Below are positions 30,993 to 51,197 of a DNA stretch of 64,000 bases, piece by piece. The notes under the pieces were generated by a model, which ran no database searches, had not been told where the DNA came from, and saw nothing but the letters and a program-made list of their open reading frames with translations. Where the stretch lies: assembly GCF_009914755.1 (NCBI RefSeq), contig NC_060937.1. The stretch is one strand, 5' to 3'. Every line of letters starts with the position of its first letter. Within the stretch, counting starts at the first letter, position 1. Origin of the DNA: the human T2T-CHM13v2.0 reference genome, Homo sapiens. A program made the position numbers and the translations under genes.

Positions 30993-31879
30993 TCATATAA
31001 TGCAAATAATAGAATATGTGACCTTTTGTGCCTGACTTCTTTAACTTAACATCATTTTTCTTAGATTCATCCAAGTATAACAGTACTTTGTTTCTTTTTA
31101 TGGTTGAATAATATTCCATGACATGTACATGCCACAATTTCTTTATCCATTCATCCAGTGACGAACATTTGAGTTGTTTTAAACTTTCAAATATTATGAA
31201 TAATACTACTGTAAGTATTTTGTGTATAATTTTTTGTATGGACGTACATTTTCACTTTCTCTTGAATACCTAGGAGTAGAATTGCCGGATCATAGATCGT
31301 ATGTTGATTCTATGTGTAATTGTTTGAGGAATCATCAAACTTTTTTCCACAGTAGTTGCACAATTTTATATTCCCAGTAGCAATGTGTGAGAGTTCCTGT
31401 TTCTCCATATCCTTGCCAAACTTATTTTTCATTTTCTTGGTTTAAGATATCCTAGTCGGCGTGAAAAGGTATCTCTCATTGTGGTTTCGATTTGCATTTC
31501 TTTAGTGACCAAGGATATTCAGCACCTTTGCTCTGGTTTAGAACCTGCAGTATAATTATGCATAGCAGAAGTGAAAGCAGCAATCCTTTTCTTGTTCTGA
31601 TTTTGAGGGCAAAATTTTAGGCTTTCATAATTGAGTATGATGTTAGTTGTGGTTTTCTCATAAAAGACCTTTATTTTGTTGCAAAAGTTCTCTGCTAGTC
31701 CCAGTTTTCAGAGTGTTTTTGGTATGAAAGGATGTTGAATGCTGTTAGTGGATTTTCTGCATGTATTGAATTCTATTAATGAGGTAAATTACATTAATTT
31801 TCTTATGTTGAACTGCCCTTGCTGTCCTGTGATAAATACCATTTGATCTTGGTGTGTAATCCTGTTAATATGCTGTTAA

Positions 31880-32174
<295 letters not shown>

Positions 32175-35100
32175 GTGCTGTTAATATTAATTTGCTAGTA
32201 TTTTGTTGAGCTGTGGTATGTGTGTGTATGTGTGTATGTGTATGTGTGTGTATGTCTGCATTCCTAAGAGATGTTTGTCTGTAGTTTGCTTGTAGTATCT
32301 TTGTCTGACTTTGGTACTAGAATAATCCTGGCTTTATAGATGTGTTAGGAAGTGTTCCCTCCTCTTCTAATTTTTGGAAAAATATTTGAGTATAATTGGT
32401 GTTAATTCTTCTTTACATGTTTAGTAGAATTCACCAGTAAAGGCATCTTGTCCTGGAATTGTCTTGTTGAGAGGTTTTGATTATGGATTTATCCTCTTGT
32501 AGGTCCTTTGAGATTTTCTACTTCTTCTTGAGTCAGCATTTTCAGTTTGTGTGTTCTAGGAATCTGTCCATGTCATCTAGATTGCATAATTGTTAGGGCA
32601 TCTAATCTCTATAGTTTCTGTAAGGTTGACAGTAATGTCCTTACTTTCATTTTTGATTTTAGTTACTTGTGTTTTATCTGTTTTTTCTCACAGTCTAACT
32701 AATGATTTATCCATTATATTCTATCCTTTCAAAGAACAAACTTACGGTTTTGTTAATTTTACTGTTTTTATATCCTCTGCTTTTCTTATCTCTGCCCTAA
32801 TCCTTATTATTTCCTTTTTCCTACCGGCTTTGGGTTTAGTTTGCTCTTCTTTATGTAGTTCCTTAAAGTTTAAAGTAAGGTTGTTGATTTGAGATCTTTC
32901 TTCTTTTCTAATGTAGACGTTTACAGCTATAAATTTCCCTCTGAGTACTGCTTTCATTGTTTCTTATAAGTTTTGGTATATTGAGTTTTTGTTTTCTTTT
33001 GTCTCAAAGTATTTTCTAATTTCCCTATTGATTTCCTTTATTGGGCTGTTTAAATGGGTGTTGTTTAATTTTTATGTATTTGCAAAATTTTCAGTTTTTC
33101 TTCTGTTACTGATTTCTAGCTTCACTCTATTGTGGTCGAAAAAGATATTTTGCATGATTTCAATCTTTTAAAATTTACTGAGAGCTGTTTTATGGCCTTA
33201 CATATGTTCTATCTATGAAATGTTTCATGTGAAATTGAGAAAGTGTATATTCTTCTGTTTGGTGAAGCATTCTGTATATACGTTTAGTCTAATTGGTTGG
33301 TAGTATTGTCCAAGTCTTTTGTTTCTTTATTAATCTTCTGCCTAGACATTCTATTATTATGGAAAGTGATTTGGTAAGTCTCCAACTATTATTGTAGAAG
33401 TGCTTATTTCTCCCTTCAATTCTGTCAATATTTGCTTCATGTATCTTAGGTCTCTGTTTGTTACATCTGTGTTTATAATTGTTATAACTTCATAATGCAC
33501 TAACCGTTTTATCAATATAAAATGTCCATCTGTCTCCTGTCACAATTTTTGACTTAAAATTTATTTTTTCTGATATTAGCATAGCCACCCAGTTCTTTGT
33601 TGGTTACTATTTGCATGGAATTTTTTTATCTTTTCACTTTCAACTTATTTTTGTCTTTGGTTCTAAAATAAGTCTCTTGTAAGCAGAACATTGTCAGATC
33701 ATGTTTATGTTATCCATTCTTCCATTTTCTGTCTTTGAATTGGTGAGTTTAACCATTTACTGATTATTAACCATTTAAACGGATTACTGATAATGAGGAA
33801 TTTACTTCTGCCATTGTGCTATATGTTTTCTATATGTCTTATATCTTTTTGTTGTTATTGTTCTTGAATTCCTCCAGTACAGGCTTTCTTTGTGTTTGAT
33901 TGACTTTTGTCTAATATACCATTTTGATTCCTTTTTTATTTTATTTTCTGTATATTTTAAAGTTTTTTTTTAGTGGTCGCCAGGGGTATATTAAATGTAT
34001 AACTAGTTTGAAGTGATATCAACTTAGCTTCAATAATATACTTTAACTCTACTCTTATGCAACTCCATCTTTCTTTATCTTGCTGTTGTTACCTATTACA
34101 TCTTTATATGTTGTATGCCCATTAACATAGATTTATAATTACTGTTTTATGTAATTGTCTTTTAAATCATATAGAAAACAAAAAGAGTGTTTATAAACCA
34201 AAAGTACAATAATGTTGAGTTTTATATTTACATATGTAGTTAACTTTATGAGTGATCTTTATTTCTTCATAGGGCTTTGAGTTACCATCTAGTGTCCTTT
34301 AGTTTCAGTTTAAAAAACTCCCTTTAGCATTTATTGTAGTGCAGGTTTACTAGTGACAGATCCCTTTAGCTTTTGTCTATTGGGGAAGGTCTTAATTTAG
34401 CCTTCATTTTTGAAGCCATGGAAATCTTGGCTTAACAGCTTTTAAAAATTCAGTACTTTAAATATATCTCACTGCCTTTTGGCCTCCATAGTTTCTGATG
34501 AAAAATCAGTTATTAACCTTATTGAGGATCCTTTGTGTGTGACAAATTGCTTCTCTTTTACTGTTTTCAAATTTTTCTGTTAACTAGGACTTTCTACAGC
34601 TTGATTATAATATGTCCCTGTGGATCTCTGAGTTTACTCTGCTTAAAGTTGAGTATTTTGTGTGTAGCTTCACATCTGTCATCAAACTTAGAAAGTTTTG
34701 GGCCATTATTTCTTTACAAATGTTTCTGCTCTTTTCTCTCTTTTCTCTTTATGACTTTTATAATATGTGTGTTAGTATAGTTCATAGTGTGCCATAGGAC
34801 CCTTAGGCTCTTAATTTTTCTTCATATTTTTCTTTCTGCTTGTCAGACTAATTTTAATTACATTCTCTTTAAGTTCACTGATTCTTCTGTCTGCTTGAAT
34901 GTGCAATTTAACTCCTTTAGTAAATATTTTATTTCAGTTGTTTTACTTTAAGCTCCAGAATTTCTATTTGGTTCTTTTTAAAAATAATTTCTGTTTCTTT
35001 ATTGATATTCTCTATTTTTTCATATATTGTTTTCTTGATTTCTTTTAGTTCTTTATCCATGGTTTCTTTCAATTTTTGAATAAGACCGTTAATTTAAAGT

Positions 35101-35820
35101 CTTTGTCTAGTAAGTCAGATATCTCAGTTGGTCTTACTTAATTTCTCTTTTTTCCTATAAATCTATAATTTCCTGTTTATTTGTATGTATTGTAATTTTT
35201 GTTGAAAAGTGAACATTTTGAATATTGTAATGTGGTAATTCTGAAAATAAGATTCTACCTTTTCTCCAGAAATTGCTTTTGTTGTTTGATGAAGGCTGCA
35301 GTTGTCTCTTTTATGGAAGGCATGTATTTCTTGTCATGTGTGTTCTCTAAAGTGCCCATTATGTTATCTCTACAGTCAGCCAATGACTTGACAGGTATTT
35401 TCTTAAATGCCTGGATCCAATAAGAAAAGAAAGGTACCTGTCTTTGAAAACTTCTAATGATTTATGTGGTGGGAGTAGTGACTCCAGCGAGTGGGGGTTG
35501 ATATAATATCTAACCTCTGTGCTGACCTCTCAATGATGAAAAGCAGTGATCAAACTGAATCATTTCTATTTTGAGGGAACACAGTCTCTATTTCCCAATC
35601 TGGTTCTAGCTAGCCACAGCAGCATCATGGGTGCCATCTCCATATCTGCCAGTCACAGGGTTTGGGGATGGGTTGATAGTGGCTAAGCAAAACACCAAAA
35701 TTCAATGAAATTTACCAGTCTGTTTCTTCATCAAGCGCCTCCCAGGATGTTGAGAGTGTTCCCCTAGATTACAGAGCTCCAAAATTGTTGCCTTACAGTT
35801 CTTGCCAGCCAGCTTAATAG

Positions 35821-36297: not shown

Positions 36298-36531
36298 AAT
36301 ATGAACAATATGATATAAAACGTCTCTTAGAACAGCTCAAACAAGGCATCATGAAAACTTGGGAAAGTGTAGGTGATGACTTATCATGGGGCTTTTCCAT
36401 TCCAAAGAAATACTGTTCTCTCCTGCACACATCTTCAAGTCAGCAAGTTTCTTGACAGAAGGCGGTAATATCACACAAATGAAATTATAAGGGTCTGTAT
36501 TAAAATACATGCACTTTTTGCTACTTACACT
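36298..36531 (-). pseudogene. FN3-like exon remnant (G-A-B-C)
   Basis: tttgttattttcag|...|gtaaat, 234 nt, one frame: SVSSKKCMYFNTDP...LPPSVKKLADLKMCAGENSISLEWKSP...LRDVLYHIVH. Confidence 0.6.
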
Positions 36532-37116
36532 CTGAAAATAACAAAATGCATTCATTTGTGATATTTATAATTTTTTCTTCAGTTTTTAGTAAAAAAAAAA
36601 TGTTAACATATATAGTTTTACTATATAATACTCTTAAATCTCCATGAGGTGAACTACTGTTTTTATTTTCTGGTTACTAACAGGGTTTAGGGAGTCAATT
36701 CCTGATCTAAATTTATCTCTAAATTCTAATAGAAAATGAATTTAAAAATCATATACAAGAGGGAAATTTTAGAGATAATAAAACTCTGTATTTTGTAGGG
36801 AGACCGCAGAATGCTTATTGAACAAGAATCCAGTTTGATGTTTTGTTAAGTAAGGACAATTAGTGTCTTAGGTCCTTTTGAATTTAATGATAAAGTATAT
36901 TGTATATTTTAATGTATAAAAATTGTAAGTATTTTGCATACAATTTCTATGAATCTGAAATGACACCCCAATTGAGTTGTTTCTTCCCAGTGAATTTTAT
37001 GATTAGATCTTAAAAACATGGGCACATTCACAATAAATGCAGTAGATTATAATTTGAAAGGAGTGATAGTAATAAGCATAAAAGAAAACAAAAATAATGG
37101 CAGATTTAGGTTTTAC

Positions 37117-37285
37117 TGGCACATGAGAGGTCAGTTTTTGAGATATTTGAAATAACATAGAGTCTCACTATATATAAACAACCTGATAATTTTTTTAAAG
37201 TTTCATAACCAAGTCAGCATTTCAGAGGGAAGAAATTTTGATGAAAGCCATGCTGTGTAAAAATTAGCTCCTGTATTCATTAACT
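37117..37285 (-). pseudogene. FN3-like exon remnant (C'-E-F)
   Basis: tttgcttcccaacag|; TAWLSSKFLPSE /fs/ TLKKLSGCLYIVRLYVISN; 169 nt, consistent with one +1 frameshift. Confidence 0.55.
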
Positions 37286-37574
37286 CTGTTGGGAAGCAAA
37301 TGTTTCACCTAAGGAGGAATGTTTCTCAGGAAGCTAGTGTACGATATGTGTGTATTGATTAATTTTATGTCTTAAAATATTTAATGCAACTTGATAAAAA
37401 TCAAATTGACTACAGAGAATTAAAAATATCATAATATAAAATTTCATTTTAGGTATGTGTAAGTCGTTTTCCACTGAATTCTGTGTCATGTGAAATCCTT
37501 ACAAAATTTTATAAAGATAATTTATAGATATATGTCTGTATATGTATGTATACACATGTACATGCATGATTTAC

Positions 37575-37799
37575 ATTTGTTTTTCACAGAATGGAGGCAA
37601 TATTAGCTTTCCTTAAAGAAAACCATGACTCTTGACAGCTCTTTAAATATTTTGCAGGTTACTGTGACTGATTCAGTTCAAACATTATGTGGCATGAACA
37701 TTTGCTCATGTGTCATATTGATGTTGATGATGTTAGCTGAGAGGGAGGAAGTACTTAACTGGAATACTATGCTTCTCAGTTTAGACACTAATTTTCTAG
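37575..37799 (-). pseudogene. FN3-like exon remnant (G-A-B-C), symmetric phase 1
   Basis: gtgttttgcaatag|...|gtaaat, 225 nt = 75 codons; RSIVFQLST...PHNV*TESVTVTCK...ES*YCLH. Confidence 0.55.
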
Positions 37800-38347
37800 C
37801 TATTGCAAAACACATTTCATTCTCACTTTAGACACACAGGGTAAAAGGCAGACTCTGCGTTCACAGACTTGGAGAGCTCATGGAAATTCATTGCAGTTCT
37901 TAGCAATTCCACCTTTGATTTTTCTCTTCAGAGATGAATATGATTCTAAGAACTACTCCAGGAGCTTTCAAACTTTTGTTTGGGATGCCACCATCTTTGA
38001 AACCTTTTTTTCTTGTTGGCTGGAAATTTTGTAAAATGTCTCTGTGAATTTCCCCTATGGCATGTCGACATCCAAGATGGTAGCCATGGGAGGCCCCGGC
38101 CCCCGCTTAGTGGCGACTCCACTCAGGAATGTGCACAGCTGCAGGAACCTGGGCTGCTGCGCAGAGGGGATTGTGCAGTTGCTCAGCTGTGTGATCCAGT
38201 GAACACAAAATATTTCACTCGGAAACTAATACTGCTTTAAGGAAAACTTATGGGGGGAGGAAAAACAGGTGAGACCAGATGATCTAATCCAATTAAAACC
38301 ATGGGATCTTTCCTTCTTATCTTTAAATAGTTTGCTTCCAAACATAC

Positions 38348-38625
38348 CGTGGTGTGATTGTTTGCCATGTTCTAATGTGACATAAGGGTGTATTTTCAAT
38401 TTAAATGCACTGTGAGGTGCCAAAAGATCACTAAGGGAGTTTGTGGAATATGTTTTCCTTAGAGCTCCAGGGCTCAATATAGAGCAATTTTGCTTGAGGA
38501 GAAACGGAGATCTTAAATGAGCTCTAGAGGTCTCTTTATATCACATTTATAAAATGACAAATGGATTGAAGTAGGTTCAAACCACAATGCAAACTCCGGG
38601 AAAGTTCCAGGGTATGAGGTCAAAT
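38348..38625 (-). pseudogene. FN3-like exon remnant (A to F)
   Basis: FEPTSIHLSF /fs/ SSFKISV...EPW /fs/ STNSLSDLLAPHSAFKLKIHPY; phase-1 donor G|gtatgt; acceptor is weak. Confidence 0.55.
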
Positions 38626-40189
38626 CTGCCTCTCTCTCTGCTGTTCGTTTTTCTCTTCGTGCCTTGGCTCTGTCTTTCCTTTGTTTCACTCTCTTTCTCT
38701 TGGTTCATCTTTTTCCCTTTTGTCTCTCTTTCCTCCTCTTATTTTGGAGAGCGTAGCCTGTTTGTTCTTCATCTTTTCCTTATCTATGGGCCTCATGACC
38801 CTTTTCTTTAAAGCAGTTGTTCATGTCCTTATTGCTTTTAGAAACCAACAGAAGTTTCTGACATCGTATATTGAATATGACTGAGGAAGAAGCCAAAGTT
38901 GTATTTAAAGAAAAGAGATGCTTTCTAAGAGAATCTGGTAGTGTTTACAAACTATGTTAGTGTAACACAAAATATTTACGAAGTAATTTCACAAAGGTAA
39001 GTCAAGCCCAGAGCCAGGATCTAAACTAAGGAACAGAGTAGGTGTTTGAGGAATGAATGCTGTCTTCTTCCCTCTGTCCTCCAGTAAGGAAGCACACCAC
39101 TGTGACAACTGAGGGGTTCAGAAGAGGGTGATTTCACAGCAGGTCATGAAAGGTAGAGGGCTGGTTAGAATTGGGCAGAGATGATGACATAACAGCTTTG
39201 GAATGATGCTACTGTGAGGTGAAGGGCTTGAAGCAAATCTTCATGAGCAAGCTGTTAGTCTTGATAAATAAGCTATTTTACTTGGTTCCTGTCTTATCTT
39301 CGAAGTAGCTTAGTTATTTTTGCTGCTTCTCAGTGTCATTTATCACAGGGACAGGAAAGTATTTTGGATTCATTTTTCAGCCTGCATCAACTTGTCGTGT
39401 GTACATCTCATTATGGTGCATCACAGTTAATTACTTACATGTGCTTTTCCCTCAAGACTGTGAACAATTGATAGCATTTAATTTTGTATCATGATAAACA
39501 TGTTGCCTGGTGGCAATTTCAGCCACATTTTAAAGTGGAATGGATAATGTAATGTCAAAACAAAAACTAACTCAACCTCCCCTACTGCATTCACCCCCTT
39601 CCCCACCCCACAATGAAGCACTGTGATCATAGTAATAGAGATGACCAGAGAACCTTGGCACTTGGGCTGACTCCTGGCAGCTGGACTGGCAGGATTTAAT
39701 AGTAAGAATACAATTTTGTGATAGAGGTGAGTGGACCACATTGCTCATTCCTGAAAGGATGCATTTTGCCTGAGGTTGCTGTTTCTCGTTGTTGCAGGCA
39801 AGCTGTGGAAGACTTAGCTGGCTTCTGCTGGTCTCAGAGGTCAACAGGTATATTCACACGAGTTTTCTTGAAATCTGCATGCCATTGCACAAACTCTTTT
39901 AGATTTTGTAAACTCGGTAAAACCATTTCATTTATTAGGAGTAAATATAGAAAGATCTATAAGTTAACTAATGATATTTATCAAATGCTTATTTTTTGGG
40001 ACACCATACCAAGCCTTTCAAGGTTCATTATAACTATGGACAATTTGTGATGCATGGATGCCAGGTGTGCCAGATTTTGTATTCTAAGGCAAAGAAAATA
40101 TATATAAGCAAGATAGGTTAGTAGCTCAGCTTCTTTGTTGAGATTTATTTTCAAAAGCAAATGTGACTTATTTTTTCTTGGCAAACTAG

Positions 40190-42629: not shown

Positions 42630-43543
42630 CTAGGAAAAGTTAGTTTTCTTTCTCCAAGAGACTTGCCATCTGTTGACAGGCATTCACACCAGTTGGCATG
42701 AAAGATCACGGAACAGCTTTCCTGGTGGAGTTTGGATCCATGTATATCATTTACAGTTAATTAGAGGTGATTTCCCTGAACTTCTTGGGTAGTTTTGAGA
42801 CCAGATTGAGAGGAAGAGATTTTCGTTTCTTTGTGTTTGTGTAACCACATGAAACAGTTTGTCTCCTCCTGCCCATCCATCCCCTTTTTGCTGTAAGAAA
42901 ATAACTCCAGTCTTGTGCTACTAACTCTCCTGATAAAAATTATTGGCCTTTTGTTAGGCGAAACAAACTAAACCCATGGCCCAGATTCATGGATAATATT
43001 TTTGGGGTTAACTGCTTACAGAGATCTTTAAAAGTTATTATTATCCAGAGAAGAGATAGCAATAATAGTTAGGGACCATTTTGTAGCAGTTACCACTGTC
43101 CTAGAAATATCAGCACAGAATTATTGATTTTCTAATGAAAAGAAGAGTAAGGCATACAAGTAGTTGTAATGTGTGTAGTGCAGAGAATAAGGCTGATCCA
43201 TTTTCAGTAGGGAATGGGACTTCAGTTATTTTTCCAGGACTGATGATGAGTCTTTGATGAGTCATCCTTACTCTCAGCTGGTTACAGTCAAGTCAACAAA
43301 TATTTCCTGAGAAATACAGAGGAGCACTGAGACAAGTATGGATTTTACACCAAGGATTTCTTTGGGAATGAAGGTACGAGCTTTCTGGGCCCGTGGATCT
43401 CATTGCATTGTTTGGGAACATATGGATTGGATTTGTGATGTTAGTCATATTAGCAAGATACTCAGGTCAACAGAGTCAAGAAGTGTGTGTGTGTCTAAGT
43501 CACATAATAGAACAATAAATTCTTTTGGTTGTCTTTTATTTTA

Positions 43544-48454: not shown

Positions 48455-50550
48455 ATATTTTAGCTTTACTGAGATATAATTGGTGTACAATAAACAGCAT
48501 GTATTAAAGTGTAAAATTTGATAGCTTTCAACATAGTATATTTCATGACGCAATCACTACAATCAGGATAATGAACCTAACCATCACCCTCAAAAGTTTC
48601 CTCACACCTCTTTGCAATCCCCCCTCACTCTTTCCCATTTCACTCTGCCCACCCCGTGCCCAAGGAAACACTGTTTTAGTTCATTCTGGTTGCTATAACA
48701 AACTACCATAAAGAAGTTTGTTTATAAACAACAGAAATTTATTTCTCACAGTTCTGGGGGCTGGGAAGTCCAAGACCAAGGGGCAGGCAGATTAGGTGTT
48801 TGGTGAGGATCTGCTTCCTGGCTCATAGATGGCAGTCTTCTCTTTGTAGCCTCACAGGGTGGAGAGAGGAGGCAAGCTCTCTCAGGAATCTTATTAAGGA
48901 CACTAATCCCATTCCTGAGGGCTCAATCCTCATGACCTTTGCTAACTCTAATTACTTCTTAAAGACTTTACCTCCCCACACCGTCACCTTGGGAGTACAG
49001 ATTTCAACACATGAGCTTTTTGAAGGGAAACACACTTTCAGACCATAGCACTGATCTGCTTTCTGTCACTATAGGTTAATTTGCATTTTCTAGAATTTTA
49101 CAAAAGTTAAATCATACCACATGTTTTTTTTTTTTTTTTTGGTTGTCATTGATTTTTTCACTTGCCATAATTATTTTGAGTTATTCACATTGTTGCAAGT
49201 ATCAATAGTTAATTCGTTTTTACTACTGAGTAATATCCATTGTTTGGTTATGCCACAATTTTGTAATCTATTCATCTGTTAATAAACCTGAGGGTTGTTT
49301 CCAGTTTTGGGTTATTACAAATAGAGCTTCTGTGAATATCTACATATGAGTCCTTGTGTAGAGAAATGCCTTCATTTCTCTTGGATAAATACCTAGGAGT
49401 TGATTGGCTAAGTCACATGGTAGCTATACACTTCACTTAGTAAGAAATGACCAGATTGACTTCCAAGGTCATAGTGTATTGTATCATTTTACCTTCCCAA
49501 GAGAATTGTATAAGAGTTCTAGTTGCTCTATATCCTCTCTGAAACATGATACAGCCAATCTTTTTAATTTTATTAATTATAGTTAGTGTGTAATAACATC
49601 TCATTGTAATTTAGTTAGCATTTCCCTAGTGACTAGTGCCATTCAGCATGCTTTAATATGGTTTTTGATATCTGTATTTTTTTGGTAAAGTATCTAAACA
49701 TTTTTTTGTTATTGTTGACTTATCTCCTTTTTTATTAAGTATCAGTTCTTCATAAATCTTTTGTACAAAGTCCTTTGCCAGATATATGATTTGCAAATAT
49801 TTTCACCCATTCTGTGGCATTTTTTTTCATATTCTTATGCAGTTAATGTTTTTGGAAGAATAAGAGTATTTAATTTGGATGAAGTTCAATTTATGGATTT
49901 TTATCTTATACCTTTTGATTTTTGGTCCTCTTTAGAACATATTTGCCAAACCCAAGGACATTAACATTTTTCTCTTAAGATTCATTTGTATATTTTGTAA
50001 GGTTACATTTTTTTCTTTGCATATGGCTATTCACCTTACAGCACAATTTTGTTGAAAAGATTATCCTTCCCTCATTGAAATGCTTTAAGGACTTTGTTGT
50101 AAGTTAGTTGATCATATGTATAGGAGTCTATTTCTGGACCCTCTATACATTGCCATTGATGTATTTGTCCACCTTTATGCCAGAACCACATTGTCATGAT
50201 TATTGTAGTTTTATAATAAGCCTTCAAACCACGTAAGTGCTGTAACTTTGTTCTTTTTCAAAGTAGTTTTGACTATTCTAGGTCACTCACATTTTTATAT
50301 AAATTTTAGAATCAGCTTACCAATTTCTGTAAAATCCTGCTGGAATTTCAATTGGAAAAGCCTTGAATCTATGGCTCCATTTGGGGGTGATTGGGTCTTA
50401 AGAATTGGGTCTTAACCTTGAAATGTGTATTTCTCTATTTATTTAGGTCTTGAATTTCTCTCATCAATGTTTTGCAGTTTTTAATGAGCATATCTCGCTC
50501 ATCTTTTGTCAAATTTATTACTGAACACTGTATTTTTGGCCCTATAATCA
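48455..50550 (-). mobile_element. L1ME1/L1MB-type fragment, interrupted by a MaLR LTR
   Basis: agctttactgagatataattgg...ctgatctgctttctgtcactatagg...aaattttagaatcagctt. Confidence 0.8.
48672..49050 (-). mobile_element. MLT1A/MSTD-type MaLR solo LTR
   Basis: tgttttagt...acagaaatttatttctcacagttctgg...cagaccatagca. Confidence 0.85.
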
Positions 50551-51197
50551 ATTATTTTTAATAACATTTTATTTTAGAACACTTTTAGTTTTGCAGAAAT
50601 TTGAGCAGATAGTTCAGATATCAAATAATCACCTTTCATACACACTTTATCCTGTTACTAACATCTTACATTAATGTGGTGCATTGAAGAACCAGTATTG
50701 CTCCGTAATTATTAACTGAAGTCTATAGTTTATTTAGAGTTCTTCAGGTTTTTCCTGATGTCCTTTTTTCTGTTTTAGGTCCCTTCCAGAATACCACAAT
50801 ACATTTAGTTATCATGTTTCCTTAAACTCTGCTTGGCTATAACATTGCTCAGACTTTTCTTACTTTGAGGATCTTGACGGTTTTGAGTCGTAATGATCAG
50901 GTATATTGTGGGATGCCCTCTATTGTAATTTGTATTATGTTTTTCTCATGTTTAGACTAGGGCTATGTGTTTGAGGAAGAAGGTCACAGGAACAAAGAGC
51001 CATTTTCATTATATTAAGAGTACATGCTATCAACATGATTTATGAATGATGATGTTGATCTTGATACCTGGTTGAAGTAGTGTTTGTCAGGTTTCTCCAC
51101 TGTAAAGTTAGTGTTTTATTCCCCCTTTTCATATTGTACTCTTTGGTAAAAAGTCACTATGCACAACATACCATTACAGAGTGGGAAAGTTATGTTC

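What the first reader, a model, noticed from the sequence alone, without database searches (positions are those of the whole stretch)
36298..38625. Four consecutive exon remnants rebuild successive FN3 domains in the right order
Reading 5' to 3' on minus: 38625-38348 (A-F, phase-1 donor), 37799-37575 (G, linker, A-B-C; phase 1-1), 37285-37117 (C'-E-F), 36531-36298 (G, linker, A-B-C). Each segment resumes at the strand where the previous one stopped, and the phases match at the first two junctions; the third junction is off by one. This is the cleanest test case for the pseudogene hypothesis.
Basis: partly seen in the sequence, partly recalled or inferred. Interest (0 to 1): 0.75.

Follow-up and report, generated by a model that had tools for sequence, protein, structure and literature searches.

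The report
Possible fossil gene, FN3 reading unproven
Four short stretches of single-copy human DNA on chromosome 13 are possibly worn-down exons of a lost surface-protein gene, but their proposed fibronectin-type domains score no better than random DNA, so the gene remains unproven.

Summary
The four segments exist with AG/GT ends and the stated phases, in single-copy DNA. The FN3 reading did not pass its own test: no FN3 hit in Pfam or PDB, z of -0.3 to 1.6 against shuffles, and a spliced, frameshift-tolerant FN3 model scores the region 11-16 bits, matched by 7-24 of 44 window tiles. A real PTPRQ block still scores 31-88 after 15% simulated decay but falls to background by 35%. No intact homologue was found. 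One independent hint of former coding: against four other-species ORFs that align here, differences in segments 1 and 3 fall 32 to 18 on predicted third codon positions (p 0.03; 0.07 against controls). The spacers align as well as the segments. The AG of segment 1 is a poor acceptor; a strong one at 38880 would add a K/R-rich stretch. Verdict: a decayed unitary pseudogene with atypical FN3 domains (0.45) against ordinary non-coding DNA (0.40). Vertebrate genome alignments would decide.

The parts
38626..38880 (-). Candidate 5' extension of segment 1: strong pyrimidine-tract acceptor before 38880, then a purine-rich stretch that reads K/R/E-rich (with an R-x-K-R run) in the frame of the proposed A-B strands
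   Evidence: Acceptor in the top 1.8% of 4245 AG sites; 121 codons with 2 stops in that frame, which 13% of 352 random windows also reach; aligns to other-species ORF P0005. Inferred, not shown
38348..38625 (-). Segment 1, proposed FN3 strands A-F; at least one frameshift; good donor, poor acceptor
   Evidence: E-F part is the best tblastn match in the window for PTPRQ-region FN3 frames (E 0.055) and ranks 7 of 512 for a CD45 exon; generic FN3 score at background
37918..38208 (-). Spacer element between segments 1 and 2, single copy, aligned to two other-species ORFs
   Evidence: 75% and 81% identity at codon positions 1-2 of P0004 and P0007; no second human copy
37575..37799 (-). Segment 2, proposed G strand, linker, A-B-C; phase 1-1
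   Evidence: FN3 score at background (z -0.02); in-frame query found no non-human relative
37117..37285 (-). Segment 3, proposed C'-E-F; frameshift inside; junction codon with segment 2 is TAG
   Evidence: z 1.59, 19 of 200 shuffles as high; against P0006, 7 differences at predicted third positions and 2 at second positions over 30 codons; the donor GT reads GA in the source of P0006
36298..36531 (-). Segment 4, proposed G strand, linker, A-B-C; strongest acceptor and the only clear B-strand motif (SISLEWKSP)
   Evidence: Acceptor top 1.5%; only match of the strict B-strand pattern in the window; 15.0 bits, 1 of 400 random windows as high

Best explanation
The four segments are likely the decayed exons of a lost, single-copy gene whose product would have carried tandem, atypical fibronectin type III domains, and nothing here can now make a protein. 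Shown: single copy in the human genome, stops and frameshifts in every segment, alignable DNA in other species that is also disrupted in the proposed frames. Inferred: the exons were spliced in phase 1 so that each G strand travelled with the next domain's A-C strands (an exon type seen in a usherin-region exon); the first exon began at 38880 and carried a basic stretch that could have been a furin-type cut site; the gene was lost early in mammals and has decayed neutrally since. Family and function of the old protein (extracellular stalk of a receptor or matrix protein) are inference only.
For: Differences between human and the other-species ORFs P0005/P0006 fall 32 to 18 on predicted third codon positions, in the predicted direction in 5 of 5 blocks, including the block where the frame flips (binomial p 0.032; 1 of 32 frame assignments; controls 41 to 42). 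Segment 4 B-strand motif. The E-F part of segment 1 is the top window hit of PTPRQ-region FN3 frames (E 0.055; pairwise E 9e-5, pair chosen by eye). Good splice signals at 38880, 38348, 37575, 36531. Segments 2-4 are 31-36% GC against 26-27% in the two spacers between them. Power tests show real FN3 exons can decay below detection.
Against: No Pfam FN3 hit in 12 segment frames or 18 longer read-throughs; no PDB match to an FN3 protein from window sequence alone. Shuffles reach the segment scores 113, 96, 19 and 25 times of 200. Spliced model: 7-24 of 44 tiles score as high, whereas a held-out PTPRQ block scores 31-88 at 15% decay. Segments 2 and 4 resemble each other no more than rank 28 of 506 and 45 of 505. 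Spacers align to other species as well as segments do (75-83% against 71-83%), with neutral-looking indels inside segment 1. The third-position excess is only p 0.07 against controls, and one spacer block shows 4 to 9 by itself. No further remnant in 104 kb, no phosphatase or PTP_tm remnant listed nearby, no intact homologue.
Confidence: 0.45

Rival explanations
1. Ordinary single-copy, AT-rich non-coding DNA that aligns among mammals at about the neutral rate; the FN3 strands, splice sites and phases were picked out of noise by choosing frames and borders freely.
For: All profile tests at background; spacers as conserved as segments; 55% of 568 random 74-codon windows have a frame with at most 2 stops; acceptor of segment 1 poor and junction 2|3 a stop codon; donor of segment 3 not kept in the source of P0006.
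Against: Third-position excess in frames fixed beforehand (p 0.03-0.07); the window's only strict B-strand motif lies 115 nt behind one of its strongest acceptors; tests lack power at 25-35% decay.
Confidence: 0.4
2. Old coding exons, but not of FN3 type or with other borders; the beta-strand-like patterns belong to another fold.
For: The codon-position signal speaks for coding, not for a fold; every FN3-specific test failed.
Against: No other Pfam family matches either strand; the frames that give the signal were chosen by FN3-like motifs.
Confidence: 0.1
3. Remnant of an ancient transposable element or a weakly constrained regulatory block, unmasked in NCBI's file.
For: Uniform alignability across segments and spacers; repeat families are not listed in the annotation and the genome DNA search skips very common words.
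Against: No second human copy for the region, segments 1 and 4 or the spacer; no Rfam match; the annotated enhancer lies 4.7 kb away.
Confidence: 0.05

Closest known systems
[quoted passage not shown]
   Same: Multi-segment layout with splice-like ends, single copy, disabling stops and frameshifts, no parent gene in the human genome.
   Different: Those are defined by an intact orthologue elsewhere; none was found here. No entry at this place in the parts of that paper's supplements I could search.
PTPRQ / R3 receptor phosphatase FN3 arrays (gene name recalled from place and sequence, C12:80.4-80.65 Mb)
   Same: E-F strands of segment 1 align weakly (9 of 35 identical).
   Different: The PTPRQ-region exons seen break inside strand E or after G, not between F and G; no phosphatase or PTP_tm remnant listed near the window.
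Usherin (USH2A; name recalled from place, C1:214.9-215.1 Mb)
   Same: One fetched exon (L069) has the G-linker-A-B-C layout proposed for segments 2 and 4.
   Different: None of the top 25 tblastn rows of 21 FN3-bearing frames falls in the four segments; the usherin/R3 profile scores the region at background (22-24 of 44 tiles as high).
CD45 / PTPRC ectodomain (atypical FN3; name recalled)
   Same: Shows how far an atypical FN3 can sit from the consensus (11-30 bits at 15% decay); F strand of segment 1 ranks 7 of 512 for one exon.
   Different: Exons break after C and after G; no significant match to any segment.

Membership tests
Fibronectin type III domain (Pfam PF00041 and relatives) | Profile match above background | tested here: not met
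   Pfam; local profiles; spliced model
Fibronectin type III domain (Pfam PF00041 and relatives) | Core Trp in strand B, Tyr in C, Leu-x-Pro-x-x-x-Tyr in E-F (motifs recalled) | tested here: inconclusive
   Trp motif only in segment 4; Cys at that place in segment 2, Phe in segment 1; E-F motif one residue out of register in segment 1
Fibronectin type III domain (Pfam PF00041 and relatives) | Seven-stranded beta-sandwich fold | not testable with these tools
   The fold tool takes no spliced or frame-mended peptide; half domains with stops would give meaningless models, so no job was sent
Unitary pseudogene | No intact parent or paralogue copy in the same genome | tested here: met
   only self-matches are significant (segments 2 and 3 tested as DNA only)
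Unitary pseudogene | Disabling stops and frameshifts | tested here: met
   Every frame of every segment holds 2-8 stops
Unitary pseudogene | Intact orthologous gene at the syntenic place in another species | not testable with these tools
   No vertebrate genomes held; protein searches found only short unspliced ORFs
Unitary pseudogene | Residual coding-type conservation of exons over introns | tested here: inconclusive
   Third-position excess p 0.03-0.07 but segments no more conserved than spacers
R3 receptor phosphatases (PTPRQ-like) | Membrane-proximal PTP_tm and catalytic PTP domain downstream | tested here: inconclusive
   None near the window among 150 of 161 PTP matches listed or 7 PTP_tm matches; decayed exons would be missed

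The most novel reading that the evidence does not exclude
An unannotated vertebrate gene for a furin-processed receptor or matrix protein with usherin-style split, fast-evolving FN3 repeats stood distal to FGF9, was lost separately in several mammalian lineages, and its exons at 38880-36298 survive in human DNA as a fossil that no catalogue lists.
Probability: 0.25. Interest if true: 0.55.

Novelty: new member of a known kind. Interest (0 to 1): 0.3.

Why it matters
If real, it adds an uncatalogued gene loss to the mammalian record and points to an FN3 gene family member that humans lack, in a gene desert next to a developmental gene. It would not be a new kind of system, and the sequence is non-functional as a gene. 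If not real, it is a useful warning that FN3-like strand patterns with AG/GT borders can be read into AT-rich DNA.

Tried and rejected
Pfam on segments and on both strands of parts of 35.9-44 kb: nothing. PDB sequence search: nothing relevant; the FN3 hits are circular, because the alignment held a real FN3 exon, and were not used. Word-based homologue searches: 0 of 10, 0 of 19 and 1 of 15 candidates, the one being human DNA. Full phmmer in one frame only: 6 hits, 2 identical to the window, 4 short off-frame ORFs. DNA around P0005/P0006 not found in viral or prokaryote contigs. Similarity of segments 2 and 4: 0 of 40 shuffles but rank 28-45 of about 505 against real window DNA, so rejected. 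CD45-paralogue idea (recalled motifs): not significant. PTPRQ-paralogue idea: one weak hit, exon breaks differ. Spacer as repeat: second hit on C17 not confirmed (73.8 against a null of 68 +/- 14). Atlas and earlier findings gave no answer. Rows dropped before the codon count: block A of P0005 (in frame, third positions not visible) and one misplaced upstream block; two control blocks lie in the candidate 5' extension.

Full report
What is there. If all junctions are phase 1 the junction codons are GCT, TAG and AAG, and segment 4 needs a phase-0 start for the proposed reading. Every frame of every segment holds 2-8 stops. The 2.3 kb has one significant match in the human genome besides a 38-nt piece of the last spacer; translated queries of segments 4 and 1 found only themselves below E 0.02. 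RefSeq has no gene here; no Rfam family reaches threshold in 33-45 kb.

Splice sites. With approximate weights from recall, ranked among 4245 AG and 2972 GT sites, the acceptor of segment 4 and the donors of segments 1 and 2 are in the top 1.5-4.2%, the acceptors of 2 and 3 and donors of 3 and 4 are middling, and the acceptor of segment 1 is poor (94% score higher) because it follows purine-rich DNA. A strong acceptor precedes 38880; from there the frame of the proposed A-B strands runs 121 codons with 2 stops through a K/R-rich stretch. 13% of 352 random windows do as well, so this is a lead. All these sites were chosen for looking good, so their ranks are not independent evidence.

FN3 tests. 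Pfam gave no FN3 hit for 12 segment frames or 18 longer read-throughs; PDB gave none from window sequence alone. I built profiles from 39-64 human FN3 domains fetched from the genome. In local mode only segment 4 stands out (15.0 bits; 1 of 400 random windows), segments 1-3 lie below 85-92% of them. A spliced, frameshift-tolerant tandem model scores the region 11-16 bits in 6 settings, with 7-24 of 44 tiles as high, and finds nothing better on this strand over 104 kb apart from one tile at 20.8 (102 tiles, mean 13.7, sd 2.5). Power: a held-out four-exon PTPRQ block scores 31-88 at 15% simulated decay, 15-28 at 25% and 11-19 at 35%; a CD45 block scores 11-30 at 15%. So the region is not FN3, or atypical FN3, or at least 25% decayed.

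Named families. By eye the E-F part of segment 1 resembled a PTPRQ exon (pairwise E 9e-5; top hit in the window at E 0.055 among 7 query frames), but PTPRQ-region exons break elsewhere. CD45 exons gave at best rank 7 of 512. Of 21 FN3-bearing frames from usherin, PTPRQ, ROS1, SDK and other regions none hit the segments in the top 25 rows; one usherin-region exon does show the G-linker-A-B-C layout. Gene names are recalled from place and sequence. Segments 2 and 4 beat 40 of 40 shuffles but rank only 28 of 506 and 45 of 505 against real window DNA.

Relatives. phmmer of one read-through frame (the frame of segments 2 and 4) against 1.84 billion proteins gave 6 hits: two are the human DNA itself, four are short ORFs 41-47% identical that cover segment 1 with its upstream flank (P0005), segment 3 with the spacer behind it (P0006) and the spacer between segments 1 and 2 (P0004, P0007). 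I take them for chance ORFs in orthologous DNA of other mammals (inference). Aligned back to the window they are 71, 83, 75 and 81% identical at their codon positions 1-2: spacers are as alignable as segments. Relative to the proposed reading the source of P0005 has its own frameshifts and the source of P0006 has GA for the donor of segment 3, so those copies look dead too. Word-based searches found no intact protein (0 of 10, 0 of 19, 1 of 15 candidates, the last human); whether these libraries hold spliced vertebrate proteins I could not establish.

The one independent test. Because P0005 and P0006 are out of frame, two of the three positions of each proposed codon can be read. With frames fixed by the motif reading, differences fall 32 on third and 18 on first or second positions, in the predicted direction in 5 of 5 blocks (binomial p 0.032; 1 of 32 assignments); 12 control blocks give 41 and 42; against controls p is 0.07, and one spacer block alone gives 4 to 9. 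Two blocks were left out (one in frame, one misplaced). In segment 3 second positions differ at 2 of 30 against 17 of 98 in the spacer (p 0.12). This is a hint, not proof; it also implies some selection after the mammalian split, which fits only with an atypical FN3.

Literature. PMC6886504: passages and term searches of supplements; the unitary-pseudogene table has one chr13 row at 24.6 Mb; I saw only 2 of 56 chr13 places in Data S1; the region list is held only in half and has no chr13 entry at hg38 22.14-22.19 Mb (conversion recalled). PMC5577775: supplement searches, no FGF9, SGCG or LINC00540; 2 of 56 chr13 places seen. PMC10195156: passages and supplement, one chr13 row elsewhere. PMC3296468: term search of the main text only, supplements not held, and they could bear on this. 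PMC10951430 (supplement search) and PMC3409229 (passages) gave nothing on the locus. Nine searches (listings only) showed no paper on a gene here. GENCODE, Ensembl and TOGA were not available.

Verdict. The anatomy is real, the FN3 assignment is unproven. I put a decayed unitary pseudogene with atypical FN3 exons at 0.45, plain non-coding DNA at 0.40, other coding at 0.10 and an old repeat or regulatory block at 0.05. Even if true it is a new member of a known kind. Interest 0.3.

Noticed in passing
window 37918-38208 (-): Single-copy spacer element, richer in GC than its surroundings, aligned to two other-species ORFs at 75-81%; holds a CCATCTT core (YY1-like, motif recalled). Could be a weak regulatory element or a further exon remnant.
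   Followed up: partly
window 42940-43131 (-): Another stretch behind a strong acceptor that reads FN3 F-G-like by eye; scores at background (9.6 bits, 38% of 400 random windows as high).
   Followed up: partly
window about 31000-35400 and 48700-51000 (-): Long decayed L1-like fragments recognisable by eye in the translations, mostly outside NCBI's masked stretches; they flank the 36-44 kb unique island.
   Followed up: no
P0002, P0003, P0008: The protein libraries hold chance ORFs from this human DNA (two identical, one chimeric on a 308-nt contig), i.e. host DNA read as genes.
   Followed up: yes
L088, about 9700 bases before the window start (+): Highest tile of the spliced FN3 scan (26.1 bits of 102 tiles); no convincing FN3 reading by eye.
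   Followed up: partly
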